44,415 nucleotides of DNA from an uncultured Ruminococcus sp. (lineage in GTDB: Bacteria > Bacillota > Clostridia > Oscillospirales > CAG-272). The DNA is taken from contig CAZQTN010000002.1 in the NCBI GenBank assembly GCA_964596195.1, positions 2,468-46,882 on the forward strand, written 5' to 3'. Positions within the stretch are counted from its first letter, which is position 1; each line of letters begins with the position of its first letter. The translations under genes and the position numbers were made by a program. The notes beneath the pieces were generated by a model. It made no database searches. It saw nothing but the letters and a program-made list of their open reading frames with translations, and was not told the origin of the DNA. This document shows positions 8,406 through 37,814 of the stretch, piece after piece.

Positions 8406-11400
8406 ATGAAGAAGGTCACCAAGCTTCTGATTCTGACATTGTCACTTGTAATGCTTTGCGGCGTTTTTGCCGTCACGGCGCTTGCTGAGAGCGTTACGGA
8501 CACCGACTCATCGTACGGCACGGCAACCGTTGCCGACGGAAACCTTTACGAGGTCGTGTACAACGGCTCCTCGACGTACTATGATTCAAGCACTACGCTT
8601 CAGGACGTTATTACCGCAGCGCCCTCGGGCTCTACCATTTATTTTCTCGGTGACGTGACCGAGGTTACCGACCGTTATGAAAATCCCAACAAGGCGGGAG
8701 AATATGTTGCCACTCCTGTAAGAGTAACCAAGCCACTTACTTTTGATCTGGGCGGGCACACACTTACCTTTGAACAGCGCGCAAAGAATTGCGGTATTTA
8801 TATAAGTACAACGGAGCTCGTCACCTTTAAAAACGGTAACGTTGCCACCGTGGCTCATTCCGATTATAACAGCAGTGGCAAAACGTTCGCATTTTCTAAC
8901 ATAAGCGCGAACGGAGCCAACGTTGCGTTCGAGGGGATAAATTCGTGCGTCAGCTCGCTCGTTTACTCATACAGCAGTAACTACACGATCACCGTAAAGG
9001 GCGGCGTCCATACCTTGAACAGCGCTCCAGCGGATATGAATACCCCCGGATTTATCTCAGGACAGCATAATATCAATGCGACCGTAATCGACGCCGTAAT
9101 ATACGCTAACGACAGAGCGATTTTGGGTGCGTCCTCTTATAAGGTGACGGGCACCACGTCTCGCATAACCACCTTCGATTTTGAAAACTGTAAAATAATT
9201 TCCAAGTCTGCCGAGACCAATATCATCGGCAACGCGAACATATATACCAACGTAAACTTTAATGGCTGCCACATATTGGGTAGTGTGACACCGTCGATCA
9301 ATGCGTCGGATGCCAATGTAGGAATAACGGTAGCTACCGCAAAGAATTTCGTGCTCGGCGAGAACACGTTTTTCTCATCCGGCTCCAATCTGTCCGCCAC
9401 TTCAACGGTTTCCGCAGGTATGGCTGTTCAGCCTACCGCCGAGCAAGCATTGGTTAACGGAGCGATGTATGAATTTGACCGCAAGGTAGATTTCATATAT
9501 GCTACCTGGTACGACGAGAATGGAGAGGTGCTCAAGCGCATAAAGATCGATTCCACCGTCACTACTCTTTCGGGACTTGCTCCCGATTACGCGGGAACAG
9601 GTGGCACCGCTAACGGATGGTACAGGATCGGCGGCTACGTCGCGAACGCTTGGACCGATACCGTCAACGGTAATAAAGCGGTGGACTTTTCCGCTATTGA
9701 CGTAGCCTCGATCACCGAGGGCATTTCGTTCTATCCTCTCGCTGACGAAAGCGAGATCAGCGCAGACCTCCGCGCCGCGATGTACAATCTCTCCACCGCG
9801 GGCGCAATCCAAAGCAACCTATACATTCCCGAAACCCCCGATAACGTTGAGATCCTCGGCGTTTACGCAGGAGAGAGGGAAGTGGCCGGCAAGCTCGTGC
9901 TTTACCACAATCACACGGATGACCCCGTGTATTACACGATGTACGTTATAGGCGAGGTTGGAGCAACTGAGTTTACCAAGAATACGGATGTTACCGTTAA
10001 GTACAGAGTAAACGGAAGCGTCGATCTTGAGCAGGTATACAGCCTGTCTCCCGAAAAGTATGCAAATGTCATTTATGACGATTCTCAGAAAAACGAGGGC
10101 AACTCATACGGCGAGGAGGCGTACAACGTAGTCGCAGACCTCGTAAGATACTCATATCTCCTTTCCGTTTACACGGGTGCTGAGGATGCCGACCTTACCG
10201 CTCTTTATAACAAAATGTATGCACTCTGCTCCGAGCTTCCCTCCGATAATGCTCTTGCAGGCTCTGTTACGAATGCCTTCACCCTCGCGGGCGCAGGCTC
10301 TATCGCATACGAGGCGTCAAGCTACGAGCCGAGATGGAGATTTACGCTTAACGAATCCGCACAGATCATAGACGCCAAGATCACCCTTGAGGGGTATAGC
10401 GTCGGCACTCTCGCCGATCGCACCAATTTCACCACTCATACCTACGGTATAGAGCAGATAACCAAGACTGCTGAGGGCTATATCACCGCCGCATATACCG
10501 AAAACATTCCGATTTATAATATCACACAGCCGTTCACCATTACCTTTACCAAGGCGGATGGCACCGAAATTTCAGGTACATACGATCTTAAATCGTACTA
10601 TACCGCCGTCAGCAAGGGCACCGCGGCAGCGGACTTCATCAAGTCGGTCGTCGCTCTTTCCGATTCCACAGTCGCATACAAGTTCCCTGAGGGCAGGGTT
10701 ACGGCAGATGACGTAGCCGACTTCTGGGAGTGCGATCACGCAGATGCAGTCAAGCAGGAAAACGTCGTATCTTACATCTACAACTTCCATCCTCGCTATT
10801 GCAGAAGGTGTGACTCCTGGCTCTTCTACTATGAGGACTACGGCGCTGTGGCAGACGGTGTGACTAACCGTACCCGTGCCACTCACGTCTCCGGCACGAA
10901 CGACTACGAGGCGATCTATTGGACTCATACGAACGCCAACGAGTGGAAGGCAAGGGACTATCTTTCGGGCGGTAAGCACGTTGCCGTCGTAGGCAACTCC
11001 GATCCTGCGAATGCCAAATATTACTACATCAGCCTTCCCGAGGGTCGCGGTATTTATACCGCTGATGCTAACCGCGACGGGATACCCGAGACTACATATA
11101 CCGGTCAGAACCTCGGTACTATCACCGTCGCTACCGACACCTCCTGGAACGGCGTTAATCTTATCATCGATGACGATGCGATCTGTAATGCTAGCGGATG
11201 CTCGTGTGTGAACGACGTCGGCGTTGCAAGAAAGCACGCTTATAACAGTCAGTCCATTTTCGCTATCGACGAGTACGGCTCGGAAAACTACACCGAGAGC
11301 CTGACGGGCAAGATCACCTCTCTTAGCGCAGGGGCTACCAACATCGGCTATGCTCCCGGCCGCAAGATGCTCGTTCAGCTTACCGACTCGAACAAAAAGA

Positions 11401-12716
11401 TCTATTTGCGCTACGGCTCTAATGCAAGCAACGGCGCATCCGTTACCGAGGTCATTCTCGTTGACGAGTTTGGAAACGTTGATCCCTCGACTCCCGTTCA
11501 GTGGGATTACGCCACGATAACCGGCGCTACGGCGTATGCGGTAGACGTCGATCCTATCAAGATCTCGGGTCTTGATGCGGCAGGTGCTATTAATGCAAGC
11601 TTTGAGAGCTACGTTAACAACTCCTTGAGCATCAGTATTCCGCATTACGTATCCTGCTCCAGAAATATTGCTATCAAGCGCTCTAATGCAACCGTTGAGG
11701 GTATCGAACGCTTCTTCACCGAGGAGGTAGCTAACTCCAACGTTACCAACAAGCGCTTTGCGTACACCTTTATCACCGTAAATCTGTGCTCGAATGCTAC
11801 CATAAAGGATATGCTCGTTATGAACCATAACAGCCAGTCCGGTGAATCTGGCGTCAGCCAGGGCTCGTACGAGTTCAGTGGCGGCAACGCAAACGCCGTA
11901 AGCTGGATCAACTGCGTAACGAAGAATATGTTCTCCAGCACTAAGGACGGATCTCTTGTTCAGGCTTATCCCGTTTACAGAGGTCTGTTCGGTACCAACC
12001 ATATCCGTAATATGTATCTCAAGGGCTGTTACCTTAACTCCTTTGATGCACACACAGGCGCGTACAACGTAACTATTGAGGACACCACCGTTGAGCATAT
12101 GAACTTTATCGGCGGCGGTGATATCATCATAAAGAACGTCGTAGTGTATACAGCGAGTCAGGGCATGGCATTCAATCTCCGTACCGACTACGGCTCGACC
12201 TGGAGAGGTGACGTATACGTAGACGGCCTTACCGTCAAGTACGCTCTCGCAAGCGGATACAAGCCCTCTAGGATCACCATCTTCAATGGATCTTACGCTA
12301 ATCAGTATTGGGGCTTTGATACCTACGCTCCGCAGAACGTAACGATCAACAATTTCCACATACAGTCGTATACTGCTACCGTTTCAAACGGTGTAAGAAC
12401 CGAGACCCTCGGAATCAAGGATAACTCGTATATGCCGGTATACTACTACTATGCTCTCAACAGCCTTAAGGATACCGACGTTCCCGACGAGAGTAAGGCC
12501 GGCATCCACGGACCTACCGATAAGGGCGATTCCAGCATTACCTACGATTACGGTACTAACAGACTCGTATGTACCCAGAAGATCACCATAACCAACAGCG
12601 TGGATATCACGATTCCCACCGGTAGCTTCTGGAAGGATATGACTGTGACCGTTGACGGTGTAGCCAAGAGGTGGGTTGGAACCGATGGCTCCGGCAACTG
12701 GGAAGACGAGGAATAA
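8406..12716 (+). CDS. Very large secreted right-handed beta-helix (pectate-lyase-fold) protein, function unknown
   Basis: Preferred start is the ATG at 8406 (GGAG 5 nt upstream). It gives MKKVTKLLILTLSLVMLCGVFAVTALA, a typical signal peptide; the track ORF starts at 8337. The sequence is Asn/Thr/Gly-rich and periodic. An internal DYGAVADGVTNRT...AIYW motif resembles the N-cap of pectate_lyase_3 / GH28 / GH55-type beta-helices. No LPXTG, SLH, dockerin or transmembrane anchor is visible at the C-terminus. Confidence 0.55.
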   Translation: MKKVTKLLILTLSLVMLCGVFAVTALAESVTDTDSSYGTATVADGNLYEVVYNGSSTYYDSSTTLQDVITAAPSGSTIYFLGDVTEVTDRYENPNKAGEYVATPVRVTKPLTFDLGGHTLTFEQRAKNCGIYISTTELVTFKNGNVATVAHSDYNSSGKTFAFSNISANGANVAFEGINSCVSSLVYSYSSNYTITVKGGVHTLNSAPADMNTPGFISGQHNINATVIDAVIYANDRAILGASSYKVTGTTSRITTFDFENCKIISKSAETNIIGNANIYTNVNFNGCHILGSVTPSINASDANVGITVATAKNFVLGENTFFSSGSNLSATSTVSAGMAVQPTAEQALVNGAMYEFDRKVDFIYATWYDENGEVLKRIKIDSTVTTLSGLAPDYAGTGGTANGWYRIGGYVANAWTDTVNGNKAVDFSAIDVASITEGISFYPLADESEISADLRAAMYNLSTAGAIQSNLYIPETPDNVEILGVYAGEREVAGKLVLYHNHTDDPVYYTMYVIGEVGATEFTKNTDVTVKYRVNGSVDLEQVYSLSPEKYANVIYDDSQKNEGNSYGEEAYNVVADLVRYSYLLSVYTGAEDADLTALYNKMYALCSELPSDNALAGSVTNAFTLAGAGSIAYEASSYEPRWRFTLNESAQIIDAKITLEGYSVGTLADRTNFTTHTYGIEQITKTAEGYITAAYTENIPIYNITQPFTITFTKADGTEISGTYDLKSYYTAVSKGTAAADFIKSVVALSDSTVAYKFPEGRVTADDVADFWECDHADAVKQENVVSYIYNFHPRYCRRCDSWLFYYEDYGAVADGVTNRTRATHVSGTNDYEAIYWTHTNANEWKARDYLSGGKHVAVVGNSDPANAKYYYISLPEGRGIYTADANRDGIPETTYTGQNLGTITVATDTSWNGVNLIIDDDAICNASGCSCVNDVGVARKHAYNSQSIFAIDEYGSENYTESLTGKITSLSAGATNIGYAPGRKMLVQLTDSNKKIYLRYGSNASNGASVTEVILVDEFGNVDPSTPVQWDYATITGATAYAVDVDPIKISGLDAAGAINASFESYVNNSLSISIPHYVSCSRNIAIKRSNATVEGIERFFTEEVANSNVTNKRFAYTFITVNLCSNATIKDMLVMNHNSQSGESGVSQGSYEFSGGNANAVSWINCVTKNMFSSTKDGSLVQAYPVYRGLFGTNHIRNMYLKGCYLNSFDAHTGAYNVTIEDTTVEHMNFIGGGDIIIKNVVVYTASQGMAFNLRTDYGSTWRGDVYVDGLTVKYALASGYKPSRITIFNGSYANQYWGFDTYAPQNVTINNFHIQSYTATVSNGVRTETLGIKDNSYMPVYYYYALNSLKDTDVPDESKAGIHGPTDKGDSSITYDYGTNRLVCTQKITITNSVDITIPTGSFWKDMTVTVDGVAKRWVGTDGSGNWEDEE

Positions 12717-12788
12717 AAAACATCAATAAAAAATGAGGAAAAACGTAGGTTTTCAACCTTGGCTTCCTCAAATTTGCACTTAATATTA

Positions 12789-12828: not shown

Positions 12829-12859
12829 TTCGGTTATGTCTAGAGGCGACAGCCCCGTT

Positions 12860-14755: not shown

Positions 14756-14760
14756 GTGGC

Positions 14761-15627
14761 TTATCTTTCCTTTCCAATAAAGAAAACTGCAAGTGTGCCG
14801 GGGCCTGAGTGTGCGCCGATAACCGGTCCGACGTCAGTCACAAGGTCAACTTCGTTGCCGAATTTTTCCTTGATCGCATCGGCGAATATCTTAACGTCGC
14901 GCTCGCAATCTGCGTGGCTGATAAAGAGGGTGGCACCCTCCTTGTCGTCAGCAAGCTCCTCATACTTCTTTACGATGGTGTCGATGGCCATTTTTCTGCC
15001 GCGTACCTTCTGCACGGAAACAAGGTGTCCCTCGTTGTCAACGTGGAGAACGGGCTTTATGCCGATAGCACTGCCGACAAAGTAGGACAGTGCGCTTATT
15101 CTGCCGCCGCGCTTGAGGTAGACGAGATCGTCGACCGTAAACCAATGGCAAAGCTTGGAGATCAGCGATTTTACGTACTCGGCGTTTTCCTCGAGTGAGG
15201 CGCCCTCGCCCTTCTTCTTTGCTGCGAGATAAACGAGCAGACCCTCTCCGGCAGATGCACAAAGGGTGTCTATGACGACGATTTTGCGCTCAGGGTACTT
15301 TTCCTTAAGGCCCTCTGCGGCGATGCGTGCAGAGTTATAGGTGGTGGAAAGACCGGACGAGAAGCCGAGGTAGAGCATATCCTTGCCTTCGCCGAGTATC
15401 CTCTCAAAGGATGCGGAGAACGTATCAGGGTTGATCGCGGCAGTTTTTGCGACTGCGCCGCCTTTCATTTTTTCGTAAAACTCACTTGTTGGCATCTCGA
15501 AGTTGAAATAGCTCTTGTCCTCGCCGTCAAAGCGGAAGGTGAGCTCCTCGTAGCCAACGCCCCACTCGGCAAGAGTTTCGGGCTTGATGTCACAGGCGGA
15601 GTCTGTGTAGATCACGTATTCATTCAT
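14761..15627 (-). CDS. fakB: DegV family fatty-acid-binding protein
   Basis: MNEYVIYTDSACDI start and 288-aa length are typical of DegV. It sits directly upstream of the DAK2 gene, the classic FakB-FakA pairing. Confidence 0.7.
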   Translation of the reverse strand: MNEYVIYTDSACDIKPETLAEWGVGYEELTFRFDGEDKSYFNFEMPTSEFYEKMKGGAVAKTAAINPDTFSASFERILGEGKDMLYLGFSSGLSTTYNSARIAAEGLKEKYPERKIVVIDTLCASAGEGLLVYLAAKKKGEGASLEENAEYVKSLISKLCHWFTVDDLVYLKRGGRISALSYFVGSAIGIKPVLHVDNEGHLVSVQKVRGRKMAIDTIVKKYEELADDKEGATLFISHADCERDVKIFADAIKEKFGNEVDLVTDVGPVIGAHSGPGTLAVFFIGKER

Positions 15628-15788
15628 AATTTTTCCTTTCCGCGTGCCAAAAGCAATATACCCAAATTACTTAATACTATTATATTGACTTGCGTATTAA
15701 AATAATTCGGTGTTTTCTATTTTGGTCGCGCATGGGGCGAGGCGTACAGACCTGTGGGAAAATACGCACACCAATCTTATTATAGCAC

Positions 15789-15817
15789 AGAAAAGTTGAT
15801 TTGTCAACAACTTACAT
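15789..15817 (-). promoter_or_regulatory. Canonical sigma-A promoter for degV-fakA
   Basis: On the minus strand: TTGACA (15817-15812), 17-nt spacer, TATAAT (15794-15789). Confidence 0.6.
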
Positions 15818-15938
15818 TTTGCTAAAACGATGGAAATGGCAAAAATGCGACACGGGGTAGCACTAAAAAATGCAAAACCCCGTGAAATTTTATAAAAATG
15901 TAAACTAAAATTGTCAAAAACACCGTAACAAACAGGCT

Positions 15939-16526
15939 TTATTGCTCCTCTTTCTCAATGGTGAATTCGGTAAAACGGCAATCTCCCTCGCACGCGGTAA
16001 AGCCGACGTGGAAGCGCTCGGGCAGATCGGGATTGTAGAGAACGAAGTTTTGGCCTGCGTACCACACCTCAACGGTCTTGCCGCTGATTTTTGCGGTCAT
16101 CTCGTGCTCGACACCCTCGCTCACAGAGAAACGGTTGCAAAGGAGCTTCGTTGCCTTAAAGGGGCGCTCCTTGTTTTCCCATACGGCGTCAAGGCGCCAG
16201 ATGTTACAGCCGTTGCACCACGCAACGACCTCGAAGAACTGCTCAAGCACGGGTATTTTGCCCTCTGCGTTGATCTCTTCGGAGATAACGAGCAGGGGGG
16301 CGGCCACGCCATAAAAGGTGAAGCGCGCGCTGAGTGTAACGCTGCCCGAATACTTGTCCTTTGAGATCATAGTGATGTAGTCGTATTCGCCGTTGTCGGG
16401 GTTAATGCCGCAGCCGACACCCGCCTCGTCCTCTGTCATAGGCACGTACGCCTTTGACTGTGGGCAGTGAACATGGAGCATATCCTCTTTCCACTCGCTT
16501 TTCTTGAGATCGTACATTTTTTTCAT
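15939..16526 (-). CDS. Hypothetical cytoplasmic protein, beta-rich (possibly ConA-like jelly roll)
   Basis: 195-aa ORF with RBS AAAGGAG and no signal peptide. The alternating beta-strand-like sequence ends in GFTACEGDCRFTEFTI. No family is confidently recognised. Confidence 0.35.
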   Translation of the reverse strand: MKKMYDLKKSEWKEDMLHVHCPQSKAYVPMTEDEAGVGCGINPDNGEYDYITMISKDKYSGSVTLSARFTFYGVAAPLLVISEEINAEGKIPVLEQFFEVVAWCNGCNIWRLDAVWENKERPFKATKLLCNRFSVSEGVEHEMTAKISGKTVEVWYAGQNFVLYNPDLPERFHVGFTACEGDCRFTEFTIEKEEQ

Positions 16527-16648
16527 TCGGTTGACTCCTTTGTTTTTGTTTCGGGTTTATTCTAGCATAATCCGTGGGCGATGTCAACTTGCCTTGGATA
16601 ATTTACACGAAAAAATCCGTCATTATCCTCAAAAAGCCTCCGAAGCGG

Positions 16649-16677
16649 TTGACTTTCCAAATCCACGCGGTTAAAAT
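16649..16677 (+). promoter_or_regulatory. Sigma-A type promoter for the lyase array
   Basis: TTGACT (16649-16654), 17-nt spacer, TAAAAT (16672-16677), 63 nt upstream of the ATG at 16741. Confidence 0.5.
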
Positions 16678-16740
16678 GAAGTTGTTTTACATCGCGCGGA
16701 CACGCAGTATGCGTGCGCGCTCACAAGGAGGATATCTTAT

Positions 16741-19700
16741 ATGCTTTTACAGGGTGCACGGGAATACGAGTTTTACAATTCCAATGCAGGCGATCGGTTT
16801 GCCGAGCTCTCGCGCTCGGGTATGAAGGCCGTTTTCATCTACTCGCCTAACGTCTATACTAACGGCCGGGCAGTCAGATACGATCCCAACGACCGAAACG
16901 TGCGTACTATCGCTATCTCGGGCGAGGTTTTTGCGCCCGTATCCCTCTTCACCGATCATCTTGGTGCATCGGTTGAGATCGTGGGCGACAACGCAACGCT
17001 CTCGCTGGGCGGCGCTTCGGCGGACTTCCGGATCTGTCAGAGCAAGGGTGTCGCGTGCCTGCCCGTTATCCGCTGTGCCCAGGCTCTCGGCCTCTCGGCT
17101 AAGGGATATTACGAGGGCAGACTCGTCGTTATCGGCACGCCTGCCGACATTTCGGCTATGGATGACGATGCCGATATGCAGACTGCGGGCGCGTATATGA
17201 TTTTTGGCAAGTACGATCCTTATTCCTTCACCTCGGACGACTATAAAGCCGCGAGAGAAAAATGGAAGATCAAGCTCGTCGGCTCGCCCGAGCTTAACGA
17301 TATGAGTAACGATCTGGTAAGAGAAAAGATAGAGGCGCTTGACAGGGCCGCCGAGGAAAAGTGGGCCACGATGCACAAGGAGCCCGACAGGTTCATTCTG
17401 TGGGGCGATGCACCGCCCGTCGAGTCGTTCGAGCTTGGCCGTCAGTACGGCGGACTTCGCGTTCTGGCGCGTGCGTGGGCGACCTACGGCTGTAAGATGT
17501 ATCAGAACGAAGAGATAAGGCTTGCAGTCATGGACGGCGTCGAGTGGATGTACGAGCATATGTACGGCGTTGCTGAAATGGAGGAGCGCGGCTGGCGCTC
17601 GGCACACGCGTTCAATTGGTACGAATGGTTCGTTTCGGCACCCGACTACCTTTGTGATATATTCTACTGCTTTGAGGACTGCTACACGGTCGAGGACAGG
17701 CGCAAATATCTTGAGTGCTTTGAGTGGTGCTCCACCTTTATGCGCCATTGGTTCAAGCGTGACGCCGCCCTTTCGAGAATATGGACGGGTACGAAGGTGG
17801 GCATCGCTTGCGAGGATCCCGATTGGCTGTACGGTGAATACGTTGATTTTGATATGCTTCTCGGCCTTGGCGAGACCGAGGAGGGGCCGCGCGTCGACTA
17901 CGTTCAATGGACTCACGGAATGCCGTATAACAATCATTACGGCGTTCTCAATCTTGATCGCGTGCTCTACGTTGCATCAACTCTTGCAGGCACGCCTGTG
18001 GAGTTTTTGAACCCCAAGCAGTACAACCAGTTTATGCTGATAAAATATATGTACGAGGCCGCCATGCATAAGGGTCAGGCGTTCGTAATGTTCTGCGGCA
18101 GATATACGGACATACTCGAGAGCCACGAGGGTGGCGCTATCGTCGGTCACGCAATGCAGATGTATGGTATGTTCGGAGAGGACGAGGATACGTACCTTGC
18201 GAAATTCCTTAAGCGCAGCACGGACGGCAACCCCATCTCGGTAAGCACGATAAAGAACATCGTCAGCATCGAGACCTCGCGCATCGTTGACTCCATACTT
18301 AAGGACGATAATCTACAGGTTGACGATTACGAATACGCTCACGCGTGGTTCACGGGTGACAGAGCCGCACAGCACAGAAATAATTACGCTATCGGTATTG
18401 CTATGTCCTCAAAGCGCGAGCCTGCATGGGAGTGCATCAACAGCGCGAACAAGACCGGCTGGTACACCGGCGACGGCGCGACATATCTGTATACCGATTA
18501 CGATCGCAATCAGTTTGACGGAGCGAATTTCCTTACCAAAAATATAGAGGTTGCATATCGCATTCCCGGCACAACCGAGGACTCGCGCGAGAGGGTTGCG
18601 CGCTCGATCAAGTCGAACCTGCGGGGCACAAAGAGCTATGCCGGCAGTATGCAGATAGAGGATAAATATATCCTCGCGGCTATGGATTTCGAGAGCTATA
18701 ATTACGAGGGACCGGACGAGAATCCCGATGACTCCGACTACGGCGGAAGCCCGCCTCCGCACAAGAACGACCTTCGCGCAAAGAAGGCGTGGTTCTGCTT
18801 TGACGATGAGATCGTCTGCCTCGGTGCGGGTATAAACTCGACTATGGATTCCCCGGTACATACGACCGTTGAGCACAAGAGGATAGTTACCGACGAGCTC
18901 GGTATTTTCCTTGACGGAGAGGGAAGAATGCCTGCCGAATCCTTCGAAAAACTTGACACGGGTGCTAAGTGGGTGCTTATGGACGGTCACTCGGGCTACG
19001 CGTTCCCTTGGGGCGGCGAGGTCTATGCGCGCAGATACACCTGCGAGGCAGCAAACGGGCAGGATTTCTTCGAGCTCGGCCTTGAGCACGGTAAAAATCC
19101 CACCGATGCGACCTATGCATACGCAATTATGCCGTACGCAAGTCTTGAAAAGCTCGATACGTATGTGAAAAATCCCGACGTTGAGATACTTGCCAACACC
19201 TCAAGGGTTCAGGCGGTTGTCGAGAAGACACTTGATATTAGGTGCTACGCCTTCCACGAGGCGGCCGATCTTGCGGGAGTTATGGTTGATGCGCCCTGCC
19301 TTGTCACAATGACGCACAACACCCTCTCTGTGAGCGACCCGACGCGCGAGCTTGAGAAGCTCACCGTTACCGTGTGGTCATCGCTTGAGATAACCGAAAA
19401 GGCGCCGAATATGCAGGTGCTTCACCGCGGCGGCAAAACTATAATTACCCTTGATCTTACGGGTGCGAACGGCAGACGCTTTGATCTTAAGTTTATCCCC
19501 TTTGCAAAGGATATGAAATACAAGGTCAGATACGACCAAAATGACGAGGCCAAGTTTCTTGAGCTCTCGCACACGGGCGCCGTTGCGGCGTTTGCATACT
19601 GCAACAGGGTTATGAAGGACGGCGTATCTCAGCCTATGGGCGAAGGGGAACGCGCGGTATTCAAAAATGATGTTCTGTGCCTACCCGTGTCGTTTTTTGA

Positions 19701-22209
19701 GAGGTTTTTGGGTACTCACGTTGCTTCGGGCGAGGCGTACGTGCCTGCGGTAAGCACCGCGCACGAGTGCGGCTTTGCCGCCGAGACCTTCTATGAGGGC
19801 AGACTCGTCGTGATAGGCACGCCCGAACACATAGAGGCAATTAAGAAAAATCCCTTGCTTGAGGAAGCTGGCGCGTACGCCGTGTTCGGCAAGTACGATG
19901 CATCGGTTTTCACGAGTGAGGATTATGAAAAGGCGAGATACGAGTGGAAGCTGCGATTGGTCGGCTCGCCCGAGATCAACGATCTTGCCGACAAAACCAT
20001 TCTCGGCAAGATAGGCTTCATTGATAATAATTGTCGCGCGGCGATGGCCGAGATGAACAGAGGTGACGACCGCGTGATCCTCTGGGGTGACAAAGCACCC
20101 GTTGAAACTGATGATCTTGGCCGTCAGTATTACAAGCTTGAGCATATGGCGCGCGCCTGGGGCACTTACGGATCGGAGTTCTATCAGAGTGACGAGGTGC
20201 TTGCACTCATACTTGAGGCTATGGAGTGGCTGTATGAGAATATGTACGGCGAGGCTGAGATCGCCGGCACGGGCTGGCGTGACGTACGCCTGTTCAACTG
20301 GTGGTATTGGTTCGTCGGTGCGCCCGACTCCCTCACCAACGTGATGCTCATTCTCGGGGATATACTCACCCTCGAGCAAAAACAAAAGTACCTCAAGTGC
20401 TACAAGTGGGTAAGGACGATAATGTACCCTGATCCCAAGGGCCCCGGTGCCGCGTCGAGAATACTCGTCGGCACGAAGGCCGCGATACTGCTTGAGGACG
20501 TGGGACTGCTTGAGCAGGCACAGCTCGACTGCGATATCACGATGCGCTTCGACGAGTACGGTGCGGTGCACCGCGCGGATTACCTCGACTGGACACACTC
20601 CCTGCCGCATAACATCTCCTACGGTGCGATCCATCTTCAGCGCTCGATGTTCGTGGCGGCAACGCTTGCGTCGACCCCCCTTGCCTTTGACGGACCGCAG
20701 AGATACAATCAGTTCAATCTTATCAGATACACCTTCGATCCCTCCATCTACCGCGCGCAGGGCTTCGTGATGTTCTCCGGCAGAAGCACGTTCGCTCGCG
20801 AGCTAAATCAGGGCGCCGCGATACTTGCCGCCGCACTTCCTATGATCGGCGTTTACGGCGAGGATGAGGATATGTACGTCAAGCGCTTCATAAAACGCAA
20901 CGCCTGCACCCCCGAGATCGTGGATATGATAAAGGCTCACGCCTCGATCTATGAGTGCGCAAAGCTCAAGGCGATACTCGATGATCCCGCGGTCGACGGC
21001 GGCAACGACGGCTACGAGTGCGCACACGCCTGGTTTACGGGCGACAGAGCCGCACAGCACAGAAACAATTACGCCATCGGTCTTGCTCTCTCGTCCGAGC
21101 GTGAGCATATGTACGAGTGCATCAACAGTGCCAACAAGACAGGCTGGTATACGGGCGACGGCGCGACCTATCTTTACACCACCTACGACGGTCATCAGTT
21201 CGACGGCGATAACTTTATCACCAAGAATATAAACGTCGCCTACCGCTTCCCCGGCACGACCGAGGACTCGCGTGAGAGGGTGGCGCGCTCCATTTCCTCA
21301 CAGTACGGTTGGTATCCTGAAAACTCCTTCTCGGGCAGTATGAAGATCGAGGATAAATATATCGTTGCGGCTATGGATTTTGTTTCGCTCAATTACGAGG
21401 GGCCCGATATCAAGCCCGACGATTACGGCTACGGCGGCAGCCAGCCGATCCACAAAAACGACCTTCGCGCCAAGAAGGCGTGGTTCTGCTTCGACGGCGA
21501 GATCGTTTGTCTCGGTGCGGGTATAACCTCGACGATGGACTCCCCCGTGCACACGACGGTCGAGCACAAGAGGATCGTTACCGACGAGCTTGGAATTTAT
21601 CTTGACGGAGAGGGAAGATTGCCCGCCGAAAGCTTTGAAAAGCTTGACACGGGTGCGACCTTCGCACTTATGGAAGGGCATTGCGGATACGTATTCCCGA
21701 GCGGAAAAGGCGTTTATGTGCGCAGATACACGTGCGAGAGCGCAAATAATCAGGATTTCATCGAGATCGGAATAGACCACGGCAAGAATCCTGCCGATGC
21801 TACCTACGAATACGTGCTTATTCCCTATGCTGGCACGAAAAAGCTTGATACGTATGCAAAAAATCCCGACGTTGCCGTGCTTTCAAACACTAAAAAGGTG
21901 CAGGCTGTCAGAGAAAACGGGCTCGGCATTACCGCTTACGTATTCCACGAGGCGGGCGAGTGCGAGGGTATATCCGTTGATGCGCCCTGCATAGTTGCAC
22001 TTTCTAAGTGCTGCGGCGAGTGCACGCTTGCAATCACCGACCCGACTCACAAATGCGACAAGATCACGGTTACCCTTGGCGGCGGCATCAAGGTGATCGG
22101 GGCGAGTGATAAAATAACCGTCGGCGAAAATTGTGGCAATACGGTCGTTGCCGTTAATACCTTTATGGCTCACGGCAGAAAATTTGAAATGAAATACGAG
22201 GAAAGATAA
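16741..22209 (+). CDS. Tandem-duplicated polysaccharide lyase family 8-like protein (two complete modules, aa 1-924 and 925-1822)
   Basis: 1822-aa ORF with RBS AAGGAGGA. Both halves carry NW(Y/W).WF, WTH..P(Y/H)N..YG, AHAWFTGDRAAQHRNNYAIG..(S)S.RE..(Y/W)ECINSANKTGWYTGDGATYLYT, YR(I/F)PGTTEDSRE, AAMDF and AKKAWFCFD.EIVCLGAGI. These match my recollection of Lyase_8 (hyaluronate / chondroitin AC / xanthan lyase) signatures. Confidence 0.7.
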   Translation: MLLQGAREYEFYNSNAGDRFAELSRSGMKAVFIYSPNVYTNGRAVRYDPNDRNVRTIAISGEVFAPVSLFTDHLGASVEIVGDNATLSLGGASADFRICQSKGVACLPVIRCAQALGLSAKGYYEGRLVVIGTPADISAMDDDADMQTAGAYMIFGKYDPYSFTSDDYKAAREKWKIKLVGSPELNDMSNDLVREKIEALDRAAEEKWATMHKEPDRFILWGDAPPVESFELGRQYGGLRVLARAWATYGCKMYQNEEIRLAVMDGVEWMYEHMYGVAEMEERGWRSAHAFNWYEWFVSAPDYLCDIFYCFEDCYTVEDRRKYLECFEWCSTFMRHWFKRDAALSRIWTGTKVGIACEDPDWLYGEYVDFDMLLGLGETEEGPRVDYVQWTHGMPYNNHYGVLNLDRVLYVASTLAGTPVEFLNPKQYNQFMLIKYMYEAAMHKGQAFVMFCGRYTDILESHEGGAIVGHAMQMYGMFGEDEDTYLAKFLKRSTDGNPISVSTIKNIVSIETSRIVDSILKDDNLQVDDYEYAHAWFTGDRAAQHRNNYAIGIAMSSKREPAWECINSANKTGWYTGDGATYLYTDYDRNQFDGANFLTKNIEVAYRIPGTTEDSRERVARSIKSNLRGTKSYAGSMQIEDKYILAAMDFESYNYEGPDENPDDSDYGGSPPPHKNDLRAKKAWFCFDDEIVCLGAGINSTMDSPVHTTVEHKRIVTDELGIFLDGEGRMPAESFEKLDTGAKWVLMDGHSGYAFPWGGEVYARRYTCEAANGQDFFELGLEHGKNPTDATYAYAIMPYASLEKLDTYVKNPDVEILANTSRVQAVVEKTLDIRCYAFHEAADLAGVMVDAPCLVTMTHNTLSVSDPTRELEKLTVTVWSSLEITEKAPNMQVLHRGGKTIITLDLTGANGRRFDLKFIPFAKDMKYKVRYDQNDEAKFLELSHTGAVAAFAYCNRVMKDGVSQPMGEGERAVFKNDVLCLPVSFFERFLGTHVASGEAYVPAVSTAHECGFAAETFYEGRLVVIGTPEHIEAIKKNPLLEEAGAYAVFGKYDASVFTSEDYEKARYEWKLRLVGSPEINDLADKTILGKIGFIDNNCRAAMAEMNRGDDRVILWGDKAPVETDDLGRQYYKLEHMARAWGTYGSEFYQSDEVLALILEAMEWLYENMYGEAEIAGTGWRDVRLFNWWYWFVGAPDSLTNVMLILGDILTLEQKQKYLKCYKWVRTIMYPDPKGPGAASRILVGTKAAILLEDVGLLEQAQLDCDITMRFDEYGAVHRADYLDWTHSLPHNISYGAIHLQRSMFVAATLASTPLAFDGPQRYNQFNLIRYTFDPSIYRAQGFVMFSGRSTFARELNQGAAILAAALPMIGVYGEDEDMYVKRFIKRNACTPEIVDMIKAHASIYECAKLKAILDDPAVDGGNDGYECAHAWFTGDRAAQHRNNYAIGLALSSEREHMYECINSANKTGWYTGDGATYLYTTYDGHQFDGDNFITKNINVAYRFPGTTEDSRERVARSISSQYGWYPENSFSGSMKIEDKYIVAAMDFVSLNYEGPDIKPDDYGYGGSQPIHKNDLRAKKAWFCFDGEIVCLGAGITSTMDSPVHTTVEHKRIVTDELGIYLDGEGRLPAESFEKLDTGATFALMEGHCGYVFPSGKGVYVRRYTCESANNQDFIEIGIDHGKNPADATYEYVLIPYAGTKKLDTYAKNPDVAVLSNTKKVQAVRENGLGITAYVFHEAGECEGISVDAPCIVALSKCCGECTLAITDPTHKCDKITVTLGGGIKVIGASDKITVGENCGNTVVAVNTFMAHGRKFEMKYEER

Positions 22210-24830
22210 TGTATAAGATCAACTATACCGAGGTTGAATATAACAGATTTCTTGAGCTCTCAAGTGAGGGGGCGATCGCAACCTTTATCTACTCCGCAAA
22301 CGTAATGAAGGACGGCCGTATCTGCCGATACGATGATGCCGATAGGAACGTGCGCGCCGTTGCCAAAGATGGTGTTACGATGGTACCCGTGTCGTTTTTT
22401 GAGAAGTTTTTGGGCGTAAAGGCGCCCGAAACCGATGAAAAATATCTCCCCCTTATCAAGACTGCAAGTGAGCTTGGCTTCTCGGCGCGGTCGTGCTACT
22501 TTGACCGCCTGACCGTTATAGGCACAAAGGAGCAGCTCGCCGAGATCGAGGCAAGCGAGAATCTTCAGGAGGCGGGCGCGTATGCCGTTTTCGGAAAGTA
22601 CGATGCAGCGTCCTTCACGCACGAGGATTATGAGTATACCAAGGATCAGTGGAGATTGCGCCTCGTTGGCTCTCCCAAGATGAACGACATATCTGACCCC
22701 GTCGTTGCCGAGAAGCTCGCGCTTGTAGATTCAGAGTGTGAGAAGTGGCTTGCACAGATGAATCGCGAGGACGACAGAGTTATAATTTGGGGCAACGAGC
22801 CTCCCGTCGAGTCGGCTGCCCTTACTGCGCAGTATAACAGGCTTTGGGCTTTGACTCGCGCATACGGAACGTATGGAAGTGTTTATTACAAAAATGAAGA
22901 GCTTTACCAAACGATTCGCGAAACACTCGATTGGCTGCGCGACAATATGTACGGCAAGGCGGCGATCGAGGGGCGCGGCTGGCGCGATATGCGCACATTT
23001 AATTGGTGGGATTGGCACGTCGGTGCGTCTTACCCCCTGACAGATATTTTACTCGTTATCGAGGACAGACTTACAATGCAGGAAAAGGCCGATTACCTTG
23101 AGTGCTACAAGTACGCAACTACGATAATGCGCCTTGGCGACGGACGTGCACAGGCTTCCAGCCGACTTAAGGGATGCACCAAGACGGCGCTCTTGCTTGA
23201 GGATGCTGAGTGGCTAGAGCGCTCGCACGAGGACTGTGATACGTTGATGGGTCTTGTCAAGGAGGGTGAGGGCATTCACGAGGGTGACTACGTTAACTGG
23301 ACTCACCTTATGCCACACAACATCTCCTACGGCAAGGGCAACCTTGAGCGCACGCTCTTCGTTTCCTCGGTGCTCGCATCGACTCCTATGGATTTTTCCG
23401 GCCCTAAGAAATACAACCAATTTATGCTTGCGAAGTACTGCTTCGACCCCGCCCTTTACAAGGGCCAGGGCTTTATGATGTTCGCAGGACGCTCTACCGC
23501 GGGCAGCGAGATGGGAATGGGCTGTAGCCTTATTTCCTGGATGCTGCCGATGATCGGTGTTTACGGCGAGGACGAGGACAACTACCTCAAAAGGATGATA
23601 AAGCGCAATCTTGCAACTCCCGATGCCATTAACAGGGTGAAGCGCGAATGCTCCATCTACGAGCTTAAGAAGCTTGACGAAATTCTGAAGGACGAGTCAA
23701 TACCGTGCGATAACGATTATGAGTACGCGCACGCTTGGTACACAGGTGACAGGGCGGCTCAACAGAGAAACAATTACGCCGTCGGTATAGCCCTTTCCTC
23801 AAAGCGCGAGATCTCTTACGAGTCGATAAACGGCTGCAACAAAACAGGTTGGCACATCGGCGACGGTGCGGTTTACGTTTATACCGATTATGACAGATAT
23901 CAGTATGACGGTCCTAACTTTACAGCAAAAAATATCGACGTTGCCTACAAGTTTCCCGGCACTACTGAGGACTCACGCGAGAGGGTCGTCCGCTCTATAG
24001 CGCGCGGATGGAAGTCGCCAAGGAGTTTCGTTGGCAGTATGCAGATAGAGGATAAGTACATTGCCGCGACGATGGACTTTGAGGCTTATCATTTCGAGGG
24101 CGAGGACACGAATCCCGATGACTACGGTCACGGCGGCAGCCTTCCTCCGCACGAGAATGACCTTGTGGCTAAGAAGTCGTGGTTCTGCTTTGACGATGAG
24201 ATATTCTGCCTTGGCGCAGGTATCACCTCTACTATGTCGTCGCCCGTGCGCACCACGGTCGAGCACCGCAGGATAGTGACCGACGAGCTTGGAATTTACA
24301 TCGACGGAGAGGGAAGAATGCCCGCATCCGACTTTGAAAAACACGACACGGGTGCCGCTTGGGTGCTTATGGACGGCCATTGTGGCTACGTTTTCCCGCA
24401 GGGCGCGAATATAAGCGCGCGCAGATACGTATGCGAGAGCGCAAAGGGGCAGAGCTTCTTTGAATTGCTTATCGAGCACGGTGAGAATCCGAGCGGTGCA
24501 AGCTACTGCTACGCTATGCTCCCCTACGCCGATGAAAACAGGGCACGCAAGTACGCGTCCGACCCCGACGTTACCGTAATATCCAATACCGCAGCACTTC
24601 AGGCGGTACGCGAGAGAGGACTCGGCATCAGCTGCTACGTATTCCACGAGACGGGCGAGTGCGAGGGACTTACGGTCGATAAGCCTTGTATCGTTACCGT
24701 AACTGCAAATAAGCTTATAGTGTGTGACCCGACGCACGAGCTTGAGTGCATCAATATTACGCTTGGCGAGCGCACCTTTACCGCAAACGTTGCCGGTAAG
24801 CGCGGAGCAAGGATAGATTTCGATATTTAA
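22209..24830 (+). CDS. Polysaccharide lyase family 8-like protein (third paralogous module)
   Basis: 873 aa. The ATG shares one base with the upstream TAA (TAATG). It has the same motif set (NWWDWHVGA, NWTHLMPHNISYG, AHAWYTGDRAAQQRNNYAVG, NKTGWHIGDGAVYVYT, FPGTTEDSRE, AKKSWFCFDDEIFCLGAGI). Confidence 0.7.
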   Translation: MYKINYTEVEYNRFLELSSEGAIATFIYSANVMKDGRICRYDDADRNVRAVAKDGVTMVPVSFFEKFLGVKAPETDEKYLPLIKTASELGFSARSCYFDRLTVIGTKEQLAEIEASENLQEAGAYAVFGKYDAASFTHEDYEYTKDQWRLRLVGSPKMNDISDPVVAEKLALVDSECEKWLAQMNREDDRVIIWGNEPPVESAALTAQYNRLWALTRAYGTYGSVYYKNEELYQTIRETLDWLRDNMYGKAAIEGRGWRDMRTFNWWDWHVGASYPLTDILLVIEDRLTMQEKADYLECYKYATTIMRLGDGRAQASSRLKGCTKTALLLEDAEWLERSHEDCDTLMGLVKEGEGIHEGDYVNWTHLMPHNISYGKGNLERTLFVSSVLASTPMDFSGPKKYNQFMLAKYCFDPALYKGQGFMMFAGRSTAGSEMGMGCSLISWMLPMIGVYGEDEDNYLKRMIKRNLATPDAINRVKRECSIYELKKLDEILKDESIPCDNDYEYAHAWYTGDRAAQQRNNYAVGIALSSKREISYESINGCNKTGWHIGDGAVYVYTDYDRYQYDGPNFTAKNIDVAYKFPGTTEDSRERVVRSIARGWKSPRSFVGSMQIEDKYIAATMDFEAYHFEGEDTNPDDYGHGGSLPPHENDLVAKKSWFCFDDEIFCLGAGITSTMSSPVRTTVEHRRIVTDELGIYIDGEGRMPASDFEKHDTGAAWVLMDGHCGYVFPQGANISARRYVCESAKGQSFFELLIEHGENPSGASYCYAMLPYADENRARKYASDPDVTVISNTAALQAVRERGLGISCYVFHETGECEGLTVDKPCIVTVTANKLIVCDPTHELECINITLGERTFTANVAGKRGARIDFDI

Positions 24831-24837: not shown

Positions 24838-24881
24838 AATGCCGTGCGCCCCGTTGGGATAAGCGCACGGCATTGTTTTTT
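24838..24881. terminator. Bidirectional intrinsic terminator (lyase array / glmM)
   Basis: AATGCCGTGCGC (24838-24849) pairs with GCGCACGGCATT (24863-24874), then TTTTTT. Confidence 0.8.
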
Positions 24882-26211
24882 ATTCAAGTGCTTCGATAGC
24901 CTTGACGATAAGGTAAACTGCACCACGGCAAATACCCTCGTCCGGGTGCTCTACCATCACGCGCACCACGGGCTCGGTTCCACTCTTACGCAAGAGCACA
25001 CGACCGACCCCGTGTAACGTTTTTTGCACCTCTTGATACGCGCTTTGTACTGTCGGATCGGCGATTGCACGCTCCTTATCGCGCACGCGCACGCTCTTTG
25101 TCAGCTGAGGATACATAACGAGTCCCTCCGAAAGTCGGGAGGCAGGTAGCTTTGATTCGATCAGCACCTCCATTATTTTGATCGCGGTGATGAGTCCGTC
25201 GCCCGTCGTTGCGTTGGCGGCAAAAATTATATGCCCCGATTCCTCCCCGCCGAGGGAATAACCGCCCTCGCGCATTGCCTCCCATACGAATCGGTCGCCA
25301 ACGTCGGTGCACAGGCACTTTATCACCTCGCGCTCAAGCGCATCACGAAGTCCGAGATTGGACATTACCGTCGTCACGACGGTGTTGCCCTGTAAAGCTC
25401 CGCGCGAGCGCAGATATTTTGCCGCGAAATAAAGTATCATCTCACCGCTTATTACGTTGCCGCCCTCATCAACCGCAAGGCAACGGTCGGCATCGCCGTC
25501 AAAGGCAAAGCCGATATCCAGCTTCTCTCTCTTAACGAGCTCACATAAGGCCGATATATGAGTTGATCCGCACTCATCGTTGATATTGGTTCCGCACGGC
25601 TCGTTGCCGATAACGTAGGTTTTTGCCCCCAGGGCATCAAAGATGCTTTTTGCCAGCATCCACGCAGAGCCGTTCGCCGCGTCGAGTCCTATGCGCAGAC
25701 CCTTGTAGGAATGCCTGGCAAGCGAGATGATATACCCCGTGTAACGATTTCGCCCCAAAACGTAATCGACAGTCCGTCCGATGCCGCTGCCCGTAGCAAG
25801 CGGAATATCGTCAGGTGAATCAATGTATTTCTCGATCTTGTCGGTGAATTCGTCACTCATTTTCTCGCCGTTATGGTTTATCAGCTTTATGCCGTTGTCT
25901 GTGTATGGGTTGTGGCTTGCGGAGATCATTATTCCGCCGTCAAAGCCCTCGCTCCTGACCACGTATGACAACGAAGGCGTGGTTGTAACGTGTAACAGAT
26001 AGGCATCCGCGCCGACCGAGGTCAGACCCGCTACAAGCGCGTATTCAAACATATAGCTCGACAGTCGAGTATCCTTGCCTATCACTATTCGCGCGCGCCC
26101 TCCGTCACAGGAATGCGCACCCAGATATTTTCCTATTTTAAAGGCGTGCTCAACCGTCAGTATTACGTTCGCCTCTCCGCGAAATCCGTCCGTGCCAAAA
26201 TACTTTCCCAT
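24880..26211 (-). CDS. glmM: Phosphoglucosamine mutase
   Basis: MGKYFGTDGFRGEAN N-terminus, active-site SASHNPYTDNGIK, Mg-binding FDGDADR and GEESGH motifs. 443 aa. Confidence 0.9.
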   Translation of the reverse strand: MGKYFGTDGFRGEANVILTVEHAFKIGKYLGAHSCDGGRARIVIGKDTRLSSYMFEYALVAGLTSVGADAYLLHVTTTPSLSYVVRSEGFDGGIMISASHNPYTDNGIKLINHNGEKMSDEFTDKIEKYIDSPDDIPLATGSGIGRTVDYVLGRNRYTGYIISLARHSYKGLRIGLDAANGSAWMLAKSIFDALGAKTYVIGNEPCGTNINDECGSTHISALCELVKREKLDIGFAFDGDADRCLAVDEGGNVISGEMILYFAAKYLRSRGALQGNTVVTTVMSNLGLRDALEREVIKCLCTDVGDRFVWEAMREGGYSLGGEESGHIIFAANATTGDGLITAIKIMEVLIESKLPASRLSEGLVMYPQLTKSVRVRDKERAIADPTVQSAYQEVQKTLHGVGRVLLRKSGTEPVVRVMVEHPDEGICRGAVYLIVKAIEALE

Positions 26212-37812: not shown

Positions 37813-37814
37813 CG

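What the first reader, a model, noticed from the sequence alone, without database searches (positions are those of the whole stretch)
16741..24830. Three head-to-tail PL8-like lyase modules, all leaderless, two fused into one 1822-aa protein
Three paralogous modules of about 870-925 aa lie in tandem: aa 1-924 and 925-1822 of one ORF, plus an 873-aa ORF whose ATG overlaps the preceding TAA. Each keeps a motif set I associate with polysaccharide lyase family 8. This includes the candidate catalytic His/Tyr in WTH..P(Y/H)N..YG, NKTGW(Y/H).GDGA.Y.YT, (I/F)PGTTEDSRE, AAMDF and AKK.WFCFD.EI.CLGAGI, so all three look catalytically competent. None of the three N-termini has a signal peptide or lipobox. 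Each instead begins with a domain of about 130 aa that loosely resembles the clostridial copper-amine-oxidase-N 'stalk' domain (...ISGEVFAPVSLFTDHLGASVEI...). No transporter, regulator or unsaturated-uronyl hydrolase (GH88/GH105) is adjacent. Characterised PL8 enzymes are typically secreted single-module proteins. A cytoplasmic triple array with a natural tandem fusion and no obvious partner genes points to an uncharacterised substrate or role.
Basis: partly seen in the sequence, partly recalled or inferred. Interest (0 to 1): 0.72.

Follow-up and report, generated by a model that had tools for sequence, protein, structure and literature searches.

The report
Leaderless tandem and fused PL8 lyases
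Three complete copies of a family-8 polysaccharide lyase, two fused into one 1822-residue protein, form one operon in an uncultured herbivore-gut Clostridia bacterium; they belong to an uncharacterised clade without export signals that most likely cuts imported sugar-acid oligosaccharides inside the cell.

Summary
ORF 16741-22209 (1822 aa) carries two complete PL8 modules and ORF 22209-24830 (873 aa) a third. Each module is a short N-terminal domain plus Lyase_8_N, Lyase_8 and Lyase_8_C. The nearest solved structures are xanthan lyases (26% identity, TM 0.81). No module has a signal peptide, and an in-frame stop at 16672 rules out an upstream extension. The N-terminal domain is a degenerate Cu_amine_oxidN1 domain.

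Three corrections apply:
- The fusion is not a one-off. About 19 protein clusters from ruminant-gut MAGs carry it, and arrays of up to five genes and a three-module fusion occur.
- Leaderless PL8s that act on imported oligosaccharides are already characterised (R. UCG13 PL8, Pt_XanPL8a).
- The active site is not fully canonical. His, Tyr, Arg and Glu are invariant, but the family-wide TGAN asparagine is absent from the whole clade.

Distant clade members sit beside ABC solute-binding proteins, GH38, GH95 and heparinase II/III-like genes. Sister proteins with the same core have clear signal peptides.

Best reading: cytoplasmic, probably exo-acting lyases with three diverged specificities and an unknown substrate. 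This is a new variant of a known kind, of moderate interest.

The parts
16649..16677 (+). Promoter-like site TTGACT-17 nt-TAAAAT upstream of the PL8 operon
   Evidence: This is a consensus match only (10 of 12 positions).
16725..16731 (+). Shine-Dalgarno AAGGAGG, 9 nt before the ATG
   Evidence: read directly from the sequence.
16741..22209 (+). 1822-aa ORF: two complete PL8 modules fused head to tail with no linker
16741..19512 (+). Module 1 (aa 1-924). N-domain is aa 1-~159 (nt 16741-17217). Key residues: R346, H392, N397, Y400, R454, E564.
   Evidence: It belongs to the 'module-1' orthologous clade.
19513..22206 (+). Module 2 (aa 925-1822). N-domain is aa 925-~1053, with the central hairpin deleted. 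Key residues: R1240, H1286, N1291, Y1294, R1348, E1459.
   Evidence: It belongs to the 'module-2' clade.
22209..24830 (+). 873-aa ORF = module 3, translationally coupled to the first ORF (TAATG overlap). Key residues: R319, H366, N371, Y374, R428, E538.
   Evidence: The AlphaFold2 (AF2) model has pLDDT 88.3.
24102..24164 (+). Clade-specific ~21-aa insertion (EDTNPDDYGHGGSLPPHENDL in module 3) just before the AKKxWF motif. D638, G642, H648, N650 and D651 are (nearly) invariant. The insertion is absent from xanthan lyases.
   Evidence: The model's pLDDT dips here (mean 56 for residues 631-640).
24838..24884 (.). Hairpin ATGCCGTGCGC...GCGCACGGCAT followed by a T-run. It is the likely terminator, shared with the convergent PGM/PMM gene.
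   Evidence: read from the sequence. The scanning tool missed it because the loop is 13 nt long.
15939..16526 (-). Divergently transcribed 195-aa ORF of unknown family. It is a syntenic neighbour only, and no functional link is shown.
   Evidence: It is present only in loci with the same synteny.
8406..12716 (+). Secreted 1436-aa protein with a probable right-handed beta-helix C-terminal domain. It is a candidate extracellular partner, but this is unproven.
   Evidence: Relatives lie near PL8 clade genes in the second context group, L005, L012, L014 and L016.

Best explanation
Proposed explanation. The operon encodes three paralogous family-8 polysaccharide lyases that stay in the cytoplasm. 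They most likely work as exo-type beta-eliminases on imported oligosaccharides that carry a sugar linked to O4 of a glucuronate-type residue. Each paralogue handles a different variant or step.

Shown:
- PL8 sequence, domain order and predicted fold.
- Strict conservation of the catalytic Tyr and His and of the Arg and Glu in all 75 modules examined.
- Absence of any signal peptide in more than 50 clade members.
- Ancient divergence of the three modules: 52-55% amino-acid identity, and third-codon-position identity of only about 55-68%.
- Inheritance of the module-1::module-2 fusion across about 19 protein clusters.
- Translational coupling of the third gene.

Inferred:
- The cytoplasmic location.
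- The exo mode. Xanthan lyase, the nearest relative, removes a terminal side-chain sugar, and the clade has an extra conserved 21-residue loop next to the active-site region.
- That fusion plus coupling serve to make the three activities in fixed 1:1:1 amounts.
- That the invariant Arg (R319 in module 3), one helical turn after the position of the lost canonical Asn, or the invariant Asn three residues before the catalytic Tyr, takes over neutralisation of the carboxylate.

Unknown: the substrate. The residues with which Bacillus xanthan lyase holds pyruvylated mannose (R313, Y315, R612) are not conserved.
For: PL8 identity:
- Pfam scores of 44-303 bits against cut-offs of 22-27.
- Profile against PDB: E 6e-113 to xanthan lyase 6f2p and about 2e-110 to the Bacillus GL1 enzyme.
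- AF2 model with pLDDT 88.3 and pTM 0.87.
- Foldseek to 1j0m: E 1.5e-44, TM 0.81.

Catalytic residues. H, Y, R and E are invariant in 35 single-module homologues and in 40 fusion modules.

Leaderless status. Sister proteins with the same N-domain plus PL8 core carry clear signal peptides. Beta-helix proteins in the same genomes carry signal peptides or lipoboxes. The lack of a leader is therefore a property of the clade and not of gene calling.

Precedent. The R. UCG13 PL8 has no signal peptide, is active only on pentasaccharides, and its model places saccharification inside the cell. Pt_XanPL8a is a second example.

Context in distant members:
- An ABC solute-binding protein, GH38 and GH95 in L015.
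- A heparinase II/III-like gene, a solute-binding protein, a GH51-like gene and a BNR gene in L013.
- A 1966-aa heparinase-II-like protein with Listeria-Bacteroides repeats in L010.
- GH123 and GH127 in L006 and L005.

Fusion is inherited. Module-1s and module-2s form separate clades. The layout fusion plus third gene recurs in L087 at 76-78% identity.

No gene conversion between the modules.
Against: - No transporter, GH88/GH105 or uronate-pathway gene lies in the 44-kb window or in the syntenic loci.
- The canonical Asn is missing, so lyase activity is not guaranteed.
- The Cu_amine_oxidN1 domain is otherwise typical of surface and cell-wall-associated proteins.
- Pt_XanPL8a, although leaderless, was detected in culture supernatant.
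- The exo mode and the substitute neutraliser are inferred from sequence only. I could not inspect model coordinates.
Confidence: 0.6

Rival explanations
1. The proteins act outside the cell. They leave by a non-classical route or by lysis. The N-terminal Cu_amine_oxidN1-like domain holds them on the cell wall, where they attack a polymer.
For: - PF07833 domains occur mostly in secreted proteins, where the domain starts about 30-45 residues in. [quoted passage not shown]
- Sister PL8s with the same core are secreted.
- Leaderless Pt_XanPL8a was found in culture supernatant.
Against: - More than 50 clade members begin directly with the conserved domain and have no hydrophobic segment.
- The same lineages put normal signal peptides or lipoboxes on their extracellular proteins.
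- There is no anchoring motif or C-terminal extension.
- The authors of the Pt_XanPL8a work still assign its main role to the cell interior.
Confidence: 0.15
2. The modules are not lyases. Having lost the charge-neutralising Asn, they have become glycan-binding proteins, or they carry out another C5-proton chemistry on the same fold, such as uronate epimerisation.
For: - The TGAN Asn is present in all 34 canonical xanthan-lyase-like relatives whose His/Tyr motif could be located (of 49 collected). It is absent under all three candidate alignments here.
- N194A was the inactivating mutant used for the xanthan lyase complex structures (the N194A label is in the 1x1h entry title; that the mutant is inactive is from my own knowledge).
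- Dermatan sulfate epimerase shares this fold class and uses His/Tyr.
- The Paenibacillus J2TS4 relative has even lost the His.
Against: - His, Tyr, Arg and Glu are invariant across 75 modules that are only 40-55% identical overall. This argues for selection on catalysis.
- An invariant Arg lies on the same helix and an invariant Asn lies next to the Tyr. Either could plausibly take over the Asn's role.
- Many other PL families neutralise the carboxylate with Arg, Gln or His (from my own knowledge).
Confidence: 0.15
3. The fusion and the array are assembly or annotation artefacts, or decaying duplicates of no functional consequence.
For: - The window comes from a metagenome-assembled contig.
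- Copy number at this syntenic slot varies between relatives. One relative has an interrupted three-module gene. Another has a recombinant single-module gene.
Against: - The same fusion, with 0-6-residue junctions, is found in about 19 clusters from independent samples at 52-85% identity.
- Module 1 and module 2 are separate orthologous clades.
- All reading frames are intact, and all catalytic and structural motifs are conserved.
Confidence: 0.03

Closest known systems
Bacillus sp. GL1 xanthan lyase XalB (PDB 1J0M, 1X1H, 2E22) and Paenibacillus nanensis xanthan lyase (6F2P), PL8
   Same: - Same three-domain PL8 body and same predicted fold (TM 0.81).
- Best sequence and profile match of all solved structures.
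- The catalytic His and Tyr, the GR arginine and the E..IN glutamate align.
   Different: - Only 24-27% identical.
- These enzymes are secreted.
- They have no N-terminal Cu_amine_oxidN1-like domain.
- They carry the TGAN Asn194 and the pyruvyl-mannose binders R313, Y315 and R612. These are all missing or deleted here.
- They lack the 21-residue insertion.
Ruminococcaceae UCG-13 PL8 (Ostrowski et al. 2022) and Pt_XanPL8a of Paenibacillus taichungensis I5 (Han et al. 2026)
   Same: They are PL8 lyases without signal peptides in Gram-positive bacteria. They act, or are proposed to act, inside the cell on imported oligosaccharides.
   Different: - They are single-copy genes inside a dedicated xanthan locus with GH88, GH38, esterases and transporters.
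- I could not compare their sequences directly.
- Here there is no such locus, there are three diverged copies, and two of them are fused.
Secreted 'signal peptide + ~200 aa + Cu_amine_oxidN1 + PL8 with an F5/8-type-C insertion' proteins of gut Clostridia MAGs and Paenibacillus sp. J2TS4 (L020-L032, L042, L050, L065)
   Same: - Same N-domain plus PL8 core.
- 27-40% identity over the best-matching segment.
- Same lack of the TGAN motif in the one member I read (L020).
   Different: - They have clear signal peptides, extra N-terminal domains and a discoidin-type insertion.
- The J2TS4 protein lies next to an ABC transporter and has Gln in place of the catalytic His.
Streptococcal hyaluronate lyases and Arthrobacter/Pedobacter chondroitin AC lyases (PL8)
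   Same: Same fold and the same catalytic His/Tyr/Arg/Glu.
   Different: - About 20% identical.
- NCBIfam equivalog scores are far below cut-off: HylB 398.5 and 225.3 bits against 1350, and chondroitinase-AC 207.2 and 113.8 bits against 1000.
- These are secreted endo-acting enzymes.

Membership tests
CAZy polysaccharide lyase family 8 (PL8) | Sequence membership: Lyase_8_N, Lyase_8 (super-sandwich) and Lyase_8_C domains in that order | tested here: met
   all three domains are above the Pfam gathering scores in each module.
CAZy polysaccharide lyase family 8 (PL8) | Fold: alpha/alpha toroid followed by beta-sandwich domains | tested here: met
   The model has pLDDT 88.3. The top 36 Foldseek hits are all PL8 structures, and the TM-score to 1j0m is 0.81.
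CAZy polysaccharide lyase family 8 (PL8) | Catalytic Tyr and His (XalB Y255/H246) plus Arg and Glu | tested here: met
   invariant in 75 modules.
CAZy polysaccharide lyase family 8 (PL8) | Carboxylate-neutralising Asn of the TGAN motif (XalB N194) | tested here: not met
   Three alternative alignments place it at module-3 G312, Q315 or S318. None of these columns is a conserved Asn in the clade. All 34 canonical relatives scored have the Asn. A structural substitute cannot be excluded without model coordinates.
CAZy polysaccharide lyase family 8 (PL8) | Beta-elimination activity (unsaturated product, A232) | not testable with these tools
   Needs an enzyme assay.
CAZy polysaccharide lyase family 8 (PL8) | Assignment to a CAZy PL8 subfamily (dbCAN) | not testable with these tools
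   No dbCAN library was available.
Xanthan lyase (EC 4.2.2.12) | Residues that bind the terminal pyruvylated mannose (XalB R313, Y315, R612) | tested here: not met
   R313 and Y315 fall in a non-conserved or gapped stretch. The R612 loop is deleted.
Hyaluronate lyase HylB / chondroitinase AC (NCBIfam equivalogs) | Score above the equivalog cut-off | tested here: not met
   398.5 and 225.3 bits against 1350, and 207.2 and 113.8 bits against 1000.
Cu_amine_oxidN1 (PF07833) for the N-terminal domain | Match above the Pfam gathering score (24.2 bits), and the matching fold | tested here: inconclusive
   - The window's own N-domains score 12.6-15.6 bits or nothing.
- 15 of 24 clade N-domains match at E<=0.1, the best at 1.9e-18.
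- The J2TS4 relative scores 33.1 bits.
- Foldseek with the module-3 N-domain model (pLDDT 95) finds nothing at E<0.1.
Sec/Tat-exported or lipoprotein enzymes | N-terminal signal peptide or lipobox | tested here: not met
   The test was by hydropathy and inspection only, because SignalP was not available.

The most novel reading that the evidence does not exclude
The clade is a new PL8 subfamily with a re-wired active site. The TGAN Asn is replaced functionally by the invariant Arg one helical turn later, or by residues of the clade-specific 21-residue loop. The clade has a specificity not yet described for PL8. It works as the intracellular half of a dispersed glycan-utilisation system. The extracellular half would be the secreted beta-helix or heparinase-II-like proteins that recur a few kilobases away. 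The tandem fusions would then be natural multi-specific 'processing lines' for a branched glucuronate-containing plant or microbial glycan in herbivore hindguts.
Probability: 0.22. Interest if true: 0.65.

Novelty: new variant of a known kind. Interest (0 to 1): 0.45.

Why it matters
PL8 is one of the best-studied lyase families, and its Asn/His/Tyr mechanism is textbook. A whole clade keeps His, Tyr, Arg and Glu but has lost the Asn. Under the search thresholds used here, that clade was found only in uncultured Clostridia MAGs, those with a stated source being from ruminant hindguts. This gives a direct test of how essential the Asn is, and it probably hides a new substrate specificity.

Natural PL8-PL8 and PL8-PL8-PL8 fusions, together with the copy-number changes at one chromosomal slot, show how recombination between tandem modules reshapes a bacterium's glycan-degrading repertoire.

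In practical terms, these are candidate enzymes for trimming glucuronate-containing oligosaccharides. None of this changes basic understanding of lyases unless the active-site re-wiring or a new chemistry is confirmed.

Tried and rejected
1. Upstream extension carrying a signal peptide. Rejected: an in-frame TAA lies at 16672-16674 with no start codon after it.
2. Recent duplication or gene conversion between the modules. Rejected: third-position identity at identical residues is only about 55-68% all along.
3. Fold identification of the N-domain. Foldseek against PDB gave no hit better than E 0.17 despite a pLDDT-95 model. Only HMM evidence from longer relatives supports Cu_amine_oxidN1.
4. 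The 195-aa divergent ORF as an obligate partner. Rejected: it has no Pfam hit, and it occurs only in loci that share the whole FakA/DegV synteny.
5. Direct identification of the 1459-aa neighbour. There were no Pfam or PDB hits with the single sequence. A profile of 11 relatives gave only sub-threshold beta-helix hits.
6. Pinning down the residue equivalent to Asn194. phmmer, hmmsearch and hhalign give three different placements. The tools return no model coordinates, so this could not be settled.
7. Literature on the function of PF07833, or on a PL8 lacking the Asn. Nothing specific was found.
8. Xanthan as the substrate. Considered because of the best structural match and a GH38 neighbour in L015. 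Not adopted, because the pyruvyl-mannose-binding residues are absent and no xanthan-type locus is present.
Full report
**1. What is there**

The window holds two co-directional ORFs. One is 16741..22209 (1822 aa) and the other is 22209..24830 (873 aa). The ATG of the second shares one base with the TAA of the first.

Pfam finds the full PL8 domain set (Lyase_8_N, Lyase_8 super-sandwich, Lyase_8_C) twice in the long ORF and once in the short one. All scores are far above the curated cut-offs. A family HMM splits the long ORF at residue 924/925, where module 2 begins with its own Met at nt 19513. The three modules are 52-55% identical.

The operon has clear bounds:
- A promoter-like TTGACT-17-TAAAAT lies at 16649-16677.
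- An AAGGAGG lies 9 nt before the ATG.
- A strong hairpin plus T-run lies at 24838-24884.

**2. No leader**

The reading frame of the first ORF is closed by TAA at 16672-16674, and there is no start codon before 16741. An upstream extension is therefore impossible.

Neither ORF has a hydrophobic segment. The best 19-residue hydropathy is 1.3. The signal peptide of the secreted neighbour ORF in the same window scores 2.5-2.9.

More than 50 homologues start in the same way, directly with the conserved N-terminal domain (M-Y-K/R-x-x-Y-T..F.ELS..GA.A.FIYS).

**3. What kind of PL8**

The best solved relatives are the xanthan lyases of Bacillus sp. GL1 and Paenibacillus:
- phmmer E 2.7e-58.
- Profile E 6e-113 to 6f2p and about 2e-110 to the Bacillus GL1 enzyme.
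- Foldseek E 1.5e-44, TM 0.81, 26% identity, on a model with pLDDT 88.3.

Hyaluronate and chondroitin AC lyases follow at about 20% identity. The NCBIfam equivalogs for HylB and chondroitinase AC are missed by a wide margin.

The catalytic His and Tyr (H366 and Y374 in module 3), the GR arginine (R428) and the glutamate (E538) are invariant. This holds in 35 single-module homologues and in 40 modules of fusion proteins.

The carboxylate-neutralising Asn is not conserved. All 34 canonical xanthan-lyase-like PL8s in which the His/Tyr motif could be located carry a T-G-A-N motif (49 were collected from the genome collection). The clade has no such motif. The three alignment methods place Asn194 at module-3 G312, Q315 or S318, and none of these columns is a conserved Asn.

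The model puts this stretch in helix 313-329. A gapless alignment of that helix agrees with hhalign (Q315 in module 3, Ala in module 1, Gly in module 2). The invariant R319 lies four residues further along the same helix. An Asn (N371) three residues before the catalytic Tyr is also invariant. Either could take over the Asn's role. This is inference, because the tools give no model coordinates.

The residues with which XalB binds pyruvylated mannose (R313, Y315, R612) are not conserved, and the R612 loop is deleted. The clade also has a conserved 21-residue insertion (PDD.G.GGS.P.H.NDL) just before the AKK.WF motif.

**4. The N-terminal domain**

In the window the match to Cu_amine_oxidN1 is below threshold. 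However, 15 of 24 clade N-domains match PF07833, the best at E 1.9e-18. A cultured relative, Paenibacillus sp. J2TS4, scores 33 bits. Modules 2 and 3 have lost the central hairpin of the domain. Foldseek on the module-3 N-domain model found nothing.

A profile of the domain was searched against 1.84 billion representative proteins:
- Strong hits start at residue 1-17 of proteins of about 900-960 aa. This is the leaderless clade, about 21 clusters at E<1e-30.
- Other hits start at about residue 200 of proteins of about 1250-1310 aa.

Proteins of that second, longer type found in the genome collection have clear signal peptides (...A-x-A | A/G-W-D-G-Y...) and a discoidin-type insertion. The same core thus exists in a secreted and a leaderless version. 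This makes the missing leader a real trait of the clade.

**5. Distribution and evolution**

The two-module fusion occurs in about 19 protein clusters from metagenomes and MAGs; those with a stated source come from goat, sheep and deer hindguts. They are 52-85% identical, with 0-6-residue junctions.

In a neighbour-joining tree all module-1s form one clade and all module-2s another. The 873-aa protein branches beside the module-2 clade and has its own orthologues at 76-84% identity.

The same chromosomal slot lies between DegV plus a 195-aa ORF on one side and PGM or nitroreductase on the other. Its content varies between relatives:

| Locus | Content of the slot |
|---|---|
| Window and L087 | Fusion plus third gene |
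| L088 and L008 | A single module-1-type gene plus the third gene |
| L007 | Only the third gene |
| L001 | Only the fusion |
| L003 | An interrupted three-module fusion |

The single gene of L088 is a module-1 body with a module-2 C-terminal tail. That is the product of recombination between the modules of a fusion. Elsewhere there are three (L011) and five (L004) tandem single-module genes. There is no sign of recent gene conversion in the window.

**6. Context**

The window has no sugar transporter, GH88/GH105 or uronate-pathway gene, and the syntenic loci have none either.

More distant clade members do sit among glycan-utilisation genes:

| Locus | Neighbouring genes |
|---|---|
| L015 | GH95, GH38, an M14 peptidase and a solute-binding protein |
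| L013 | A heparinase II/III-like protein, BNR, CBM9-like, two GFO/IDH/MocA oxidoreductases, a solute-binding protein and a GH51-like protein |
| L010 | A 1966-aa heparinase-II-like protein with Listeria-Bacteroides repeats |
| L006 | GH123 |
| L005 | GH127 |

In the window a secreted 1436-aa protein lies 4 kb upstream. Its C-terminal domain begins with the DFGA.GDG.TDD motif and gives weak beta-helix hits. Lipoprotein relatives of it lie 3.5-9 kb from the PL8 gene in a second context group, L005, L012, L014 and L016.

**7. Interpretation**

The best-supported model is a set of cytoplasmic PL8 lyases that finish the breakdown of imported oligosaccharides. This follows the precedent of the R. 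UCG13 PL8 and Pt_XanPL8a. There would be three anciently diverged specificities. Clade-specific differences next to the catalytic Tyr fit this, for example PYNNHYG against PHNISYG. Fusion and translational coupling would fix the stoichiometry of the three activities. The substrate is unknown and is probably not native xanthan.

The rivals are surface action after non-classical release, loss or change of chemistry because of the missing Asn, and artefact. I consider the first two less likely and the third very unlikely.

**8. Verdict**

This is an uncharacterised, distinctive clade of a well-known family, so a new variant of a known kind. Interest is moderate. The missing catalytic Asn and the natural multi-module fusions are the points worth an experiment.

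Noticed in passing
window 8406-12716 (+): Secreted 1436-aa protein with signal peptide MKKVTKLLILTLSLVMLCGVFAVTALA and no Pfam hit. Its C-terminal ~650 aa start with DFGAxGDGxTDD. They give weak hits to a tailspike (8x8m, E 0.0095), GH55 (5m5z, E 0.012) and PF12708, so it is probably a beta-helix glycan depolymerase. Lipoprotein relatives, two in tandem, lie 3.5-9 kb from clade PL8 genes in L005, L012, L014 and L016.
   Followed up: partly
window 15939-16526 (-): 195-aa ORF with no family match, transcribed divergently from the PL8 operon. It has its own promoter-like TTGACA-17-TAGAAT at 16587-16559. It is conserved only in loci that share the FakA/DegV synteny.
   Followed up: partly
L088:7165-10008: Single-module gene that is module-1-like up to ...SDPTRE and module-2-like for the last ~55 residues. 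It looks like a recombinational collapse of a two-module fusion.
   Followed up: yes
L003:8832-17203: Three PL8 modules in one gene (2401 aa as called). The first module is split over two overlapping frames (8832-10118 and 9692-17203), which indicates a frameshift or a sequencing error.
   Followed up: partly
L004:9980-22830: Five tandem single-module clade genes directly downstream of infB. L011 has three in the same position.
   Followed up: partly
L020:8453-12826 (Paenibacillus sp. J2TS4): Secreted 1458-aa relative with CBM_4_9, Cu_amine_oxidN1, and PL8 with an F5/8-type-C insertion. It lies next to an ABC transporter and an M14 peptidase. The catalytic His position reads Gln. An M14 peptidase also follows the PL8 gene in L015.
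   Followed up: partly
window 19504-19515: The codons just before the module-2 Met read GCA AAG GAT ATG. AAGGA may be the fossil ribosome-binding site of a once separate gene.
   Followed up: no
window ~39000-43000: GC content drops from about 0.51 to 0.40, with strong positive GC skew. The small ORFs and the adjacent 527-aa ORF (42781-44364) that I scanned have no Pfam match. This may be foreign DNA.
   Followed up: no
window 36748-37902 (-) and 1798-3663 (+): A weak GH28-like ORF and a GH5-like ORF with a GH42M domain. CAZyme genes seem scattered singly rather than grouped into loci in this genome.
   Followed up: no
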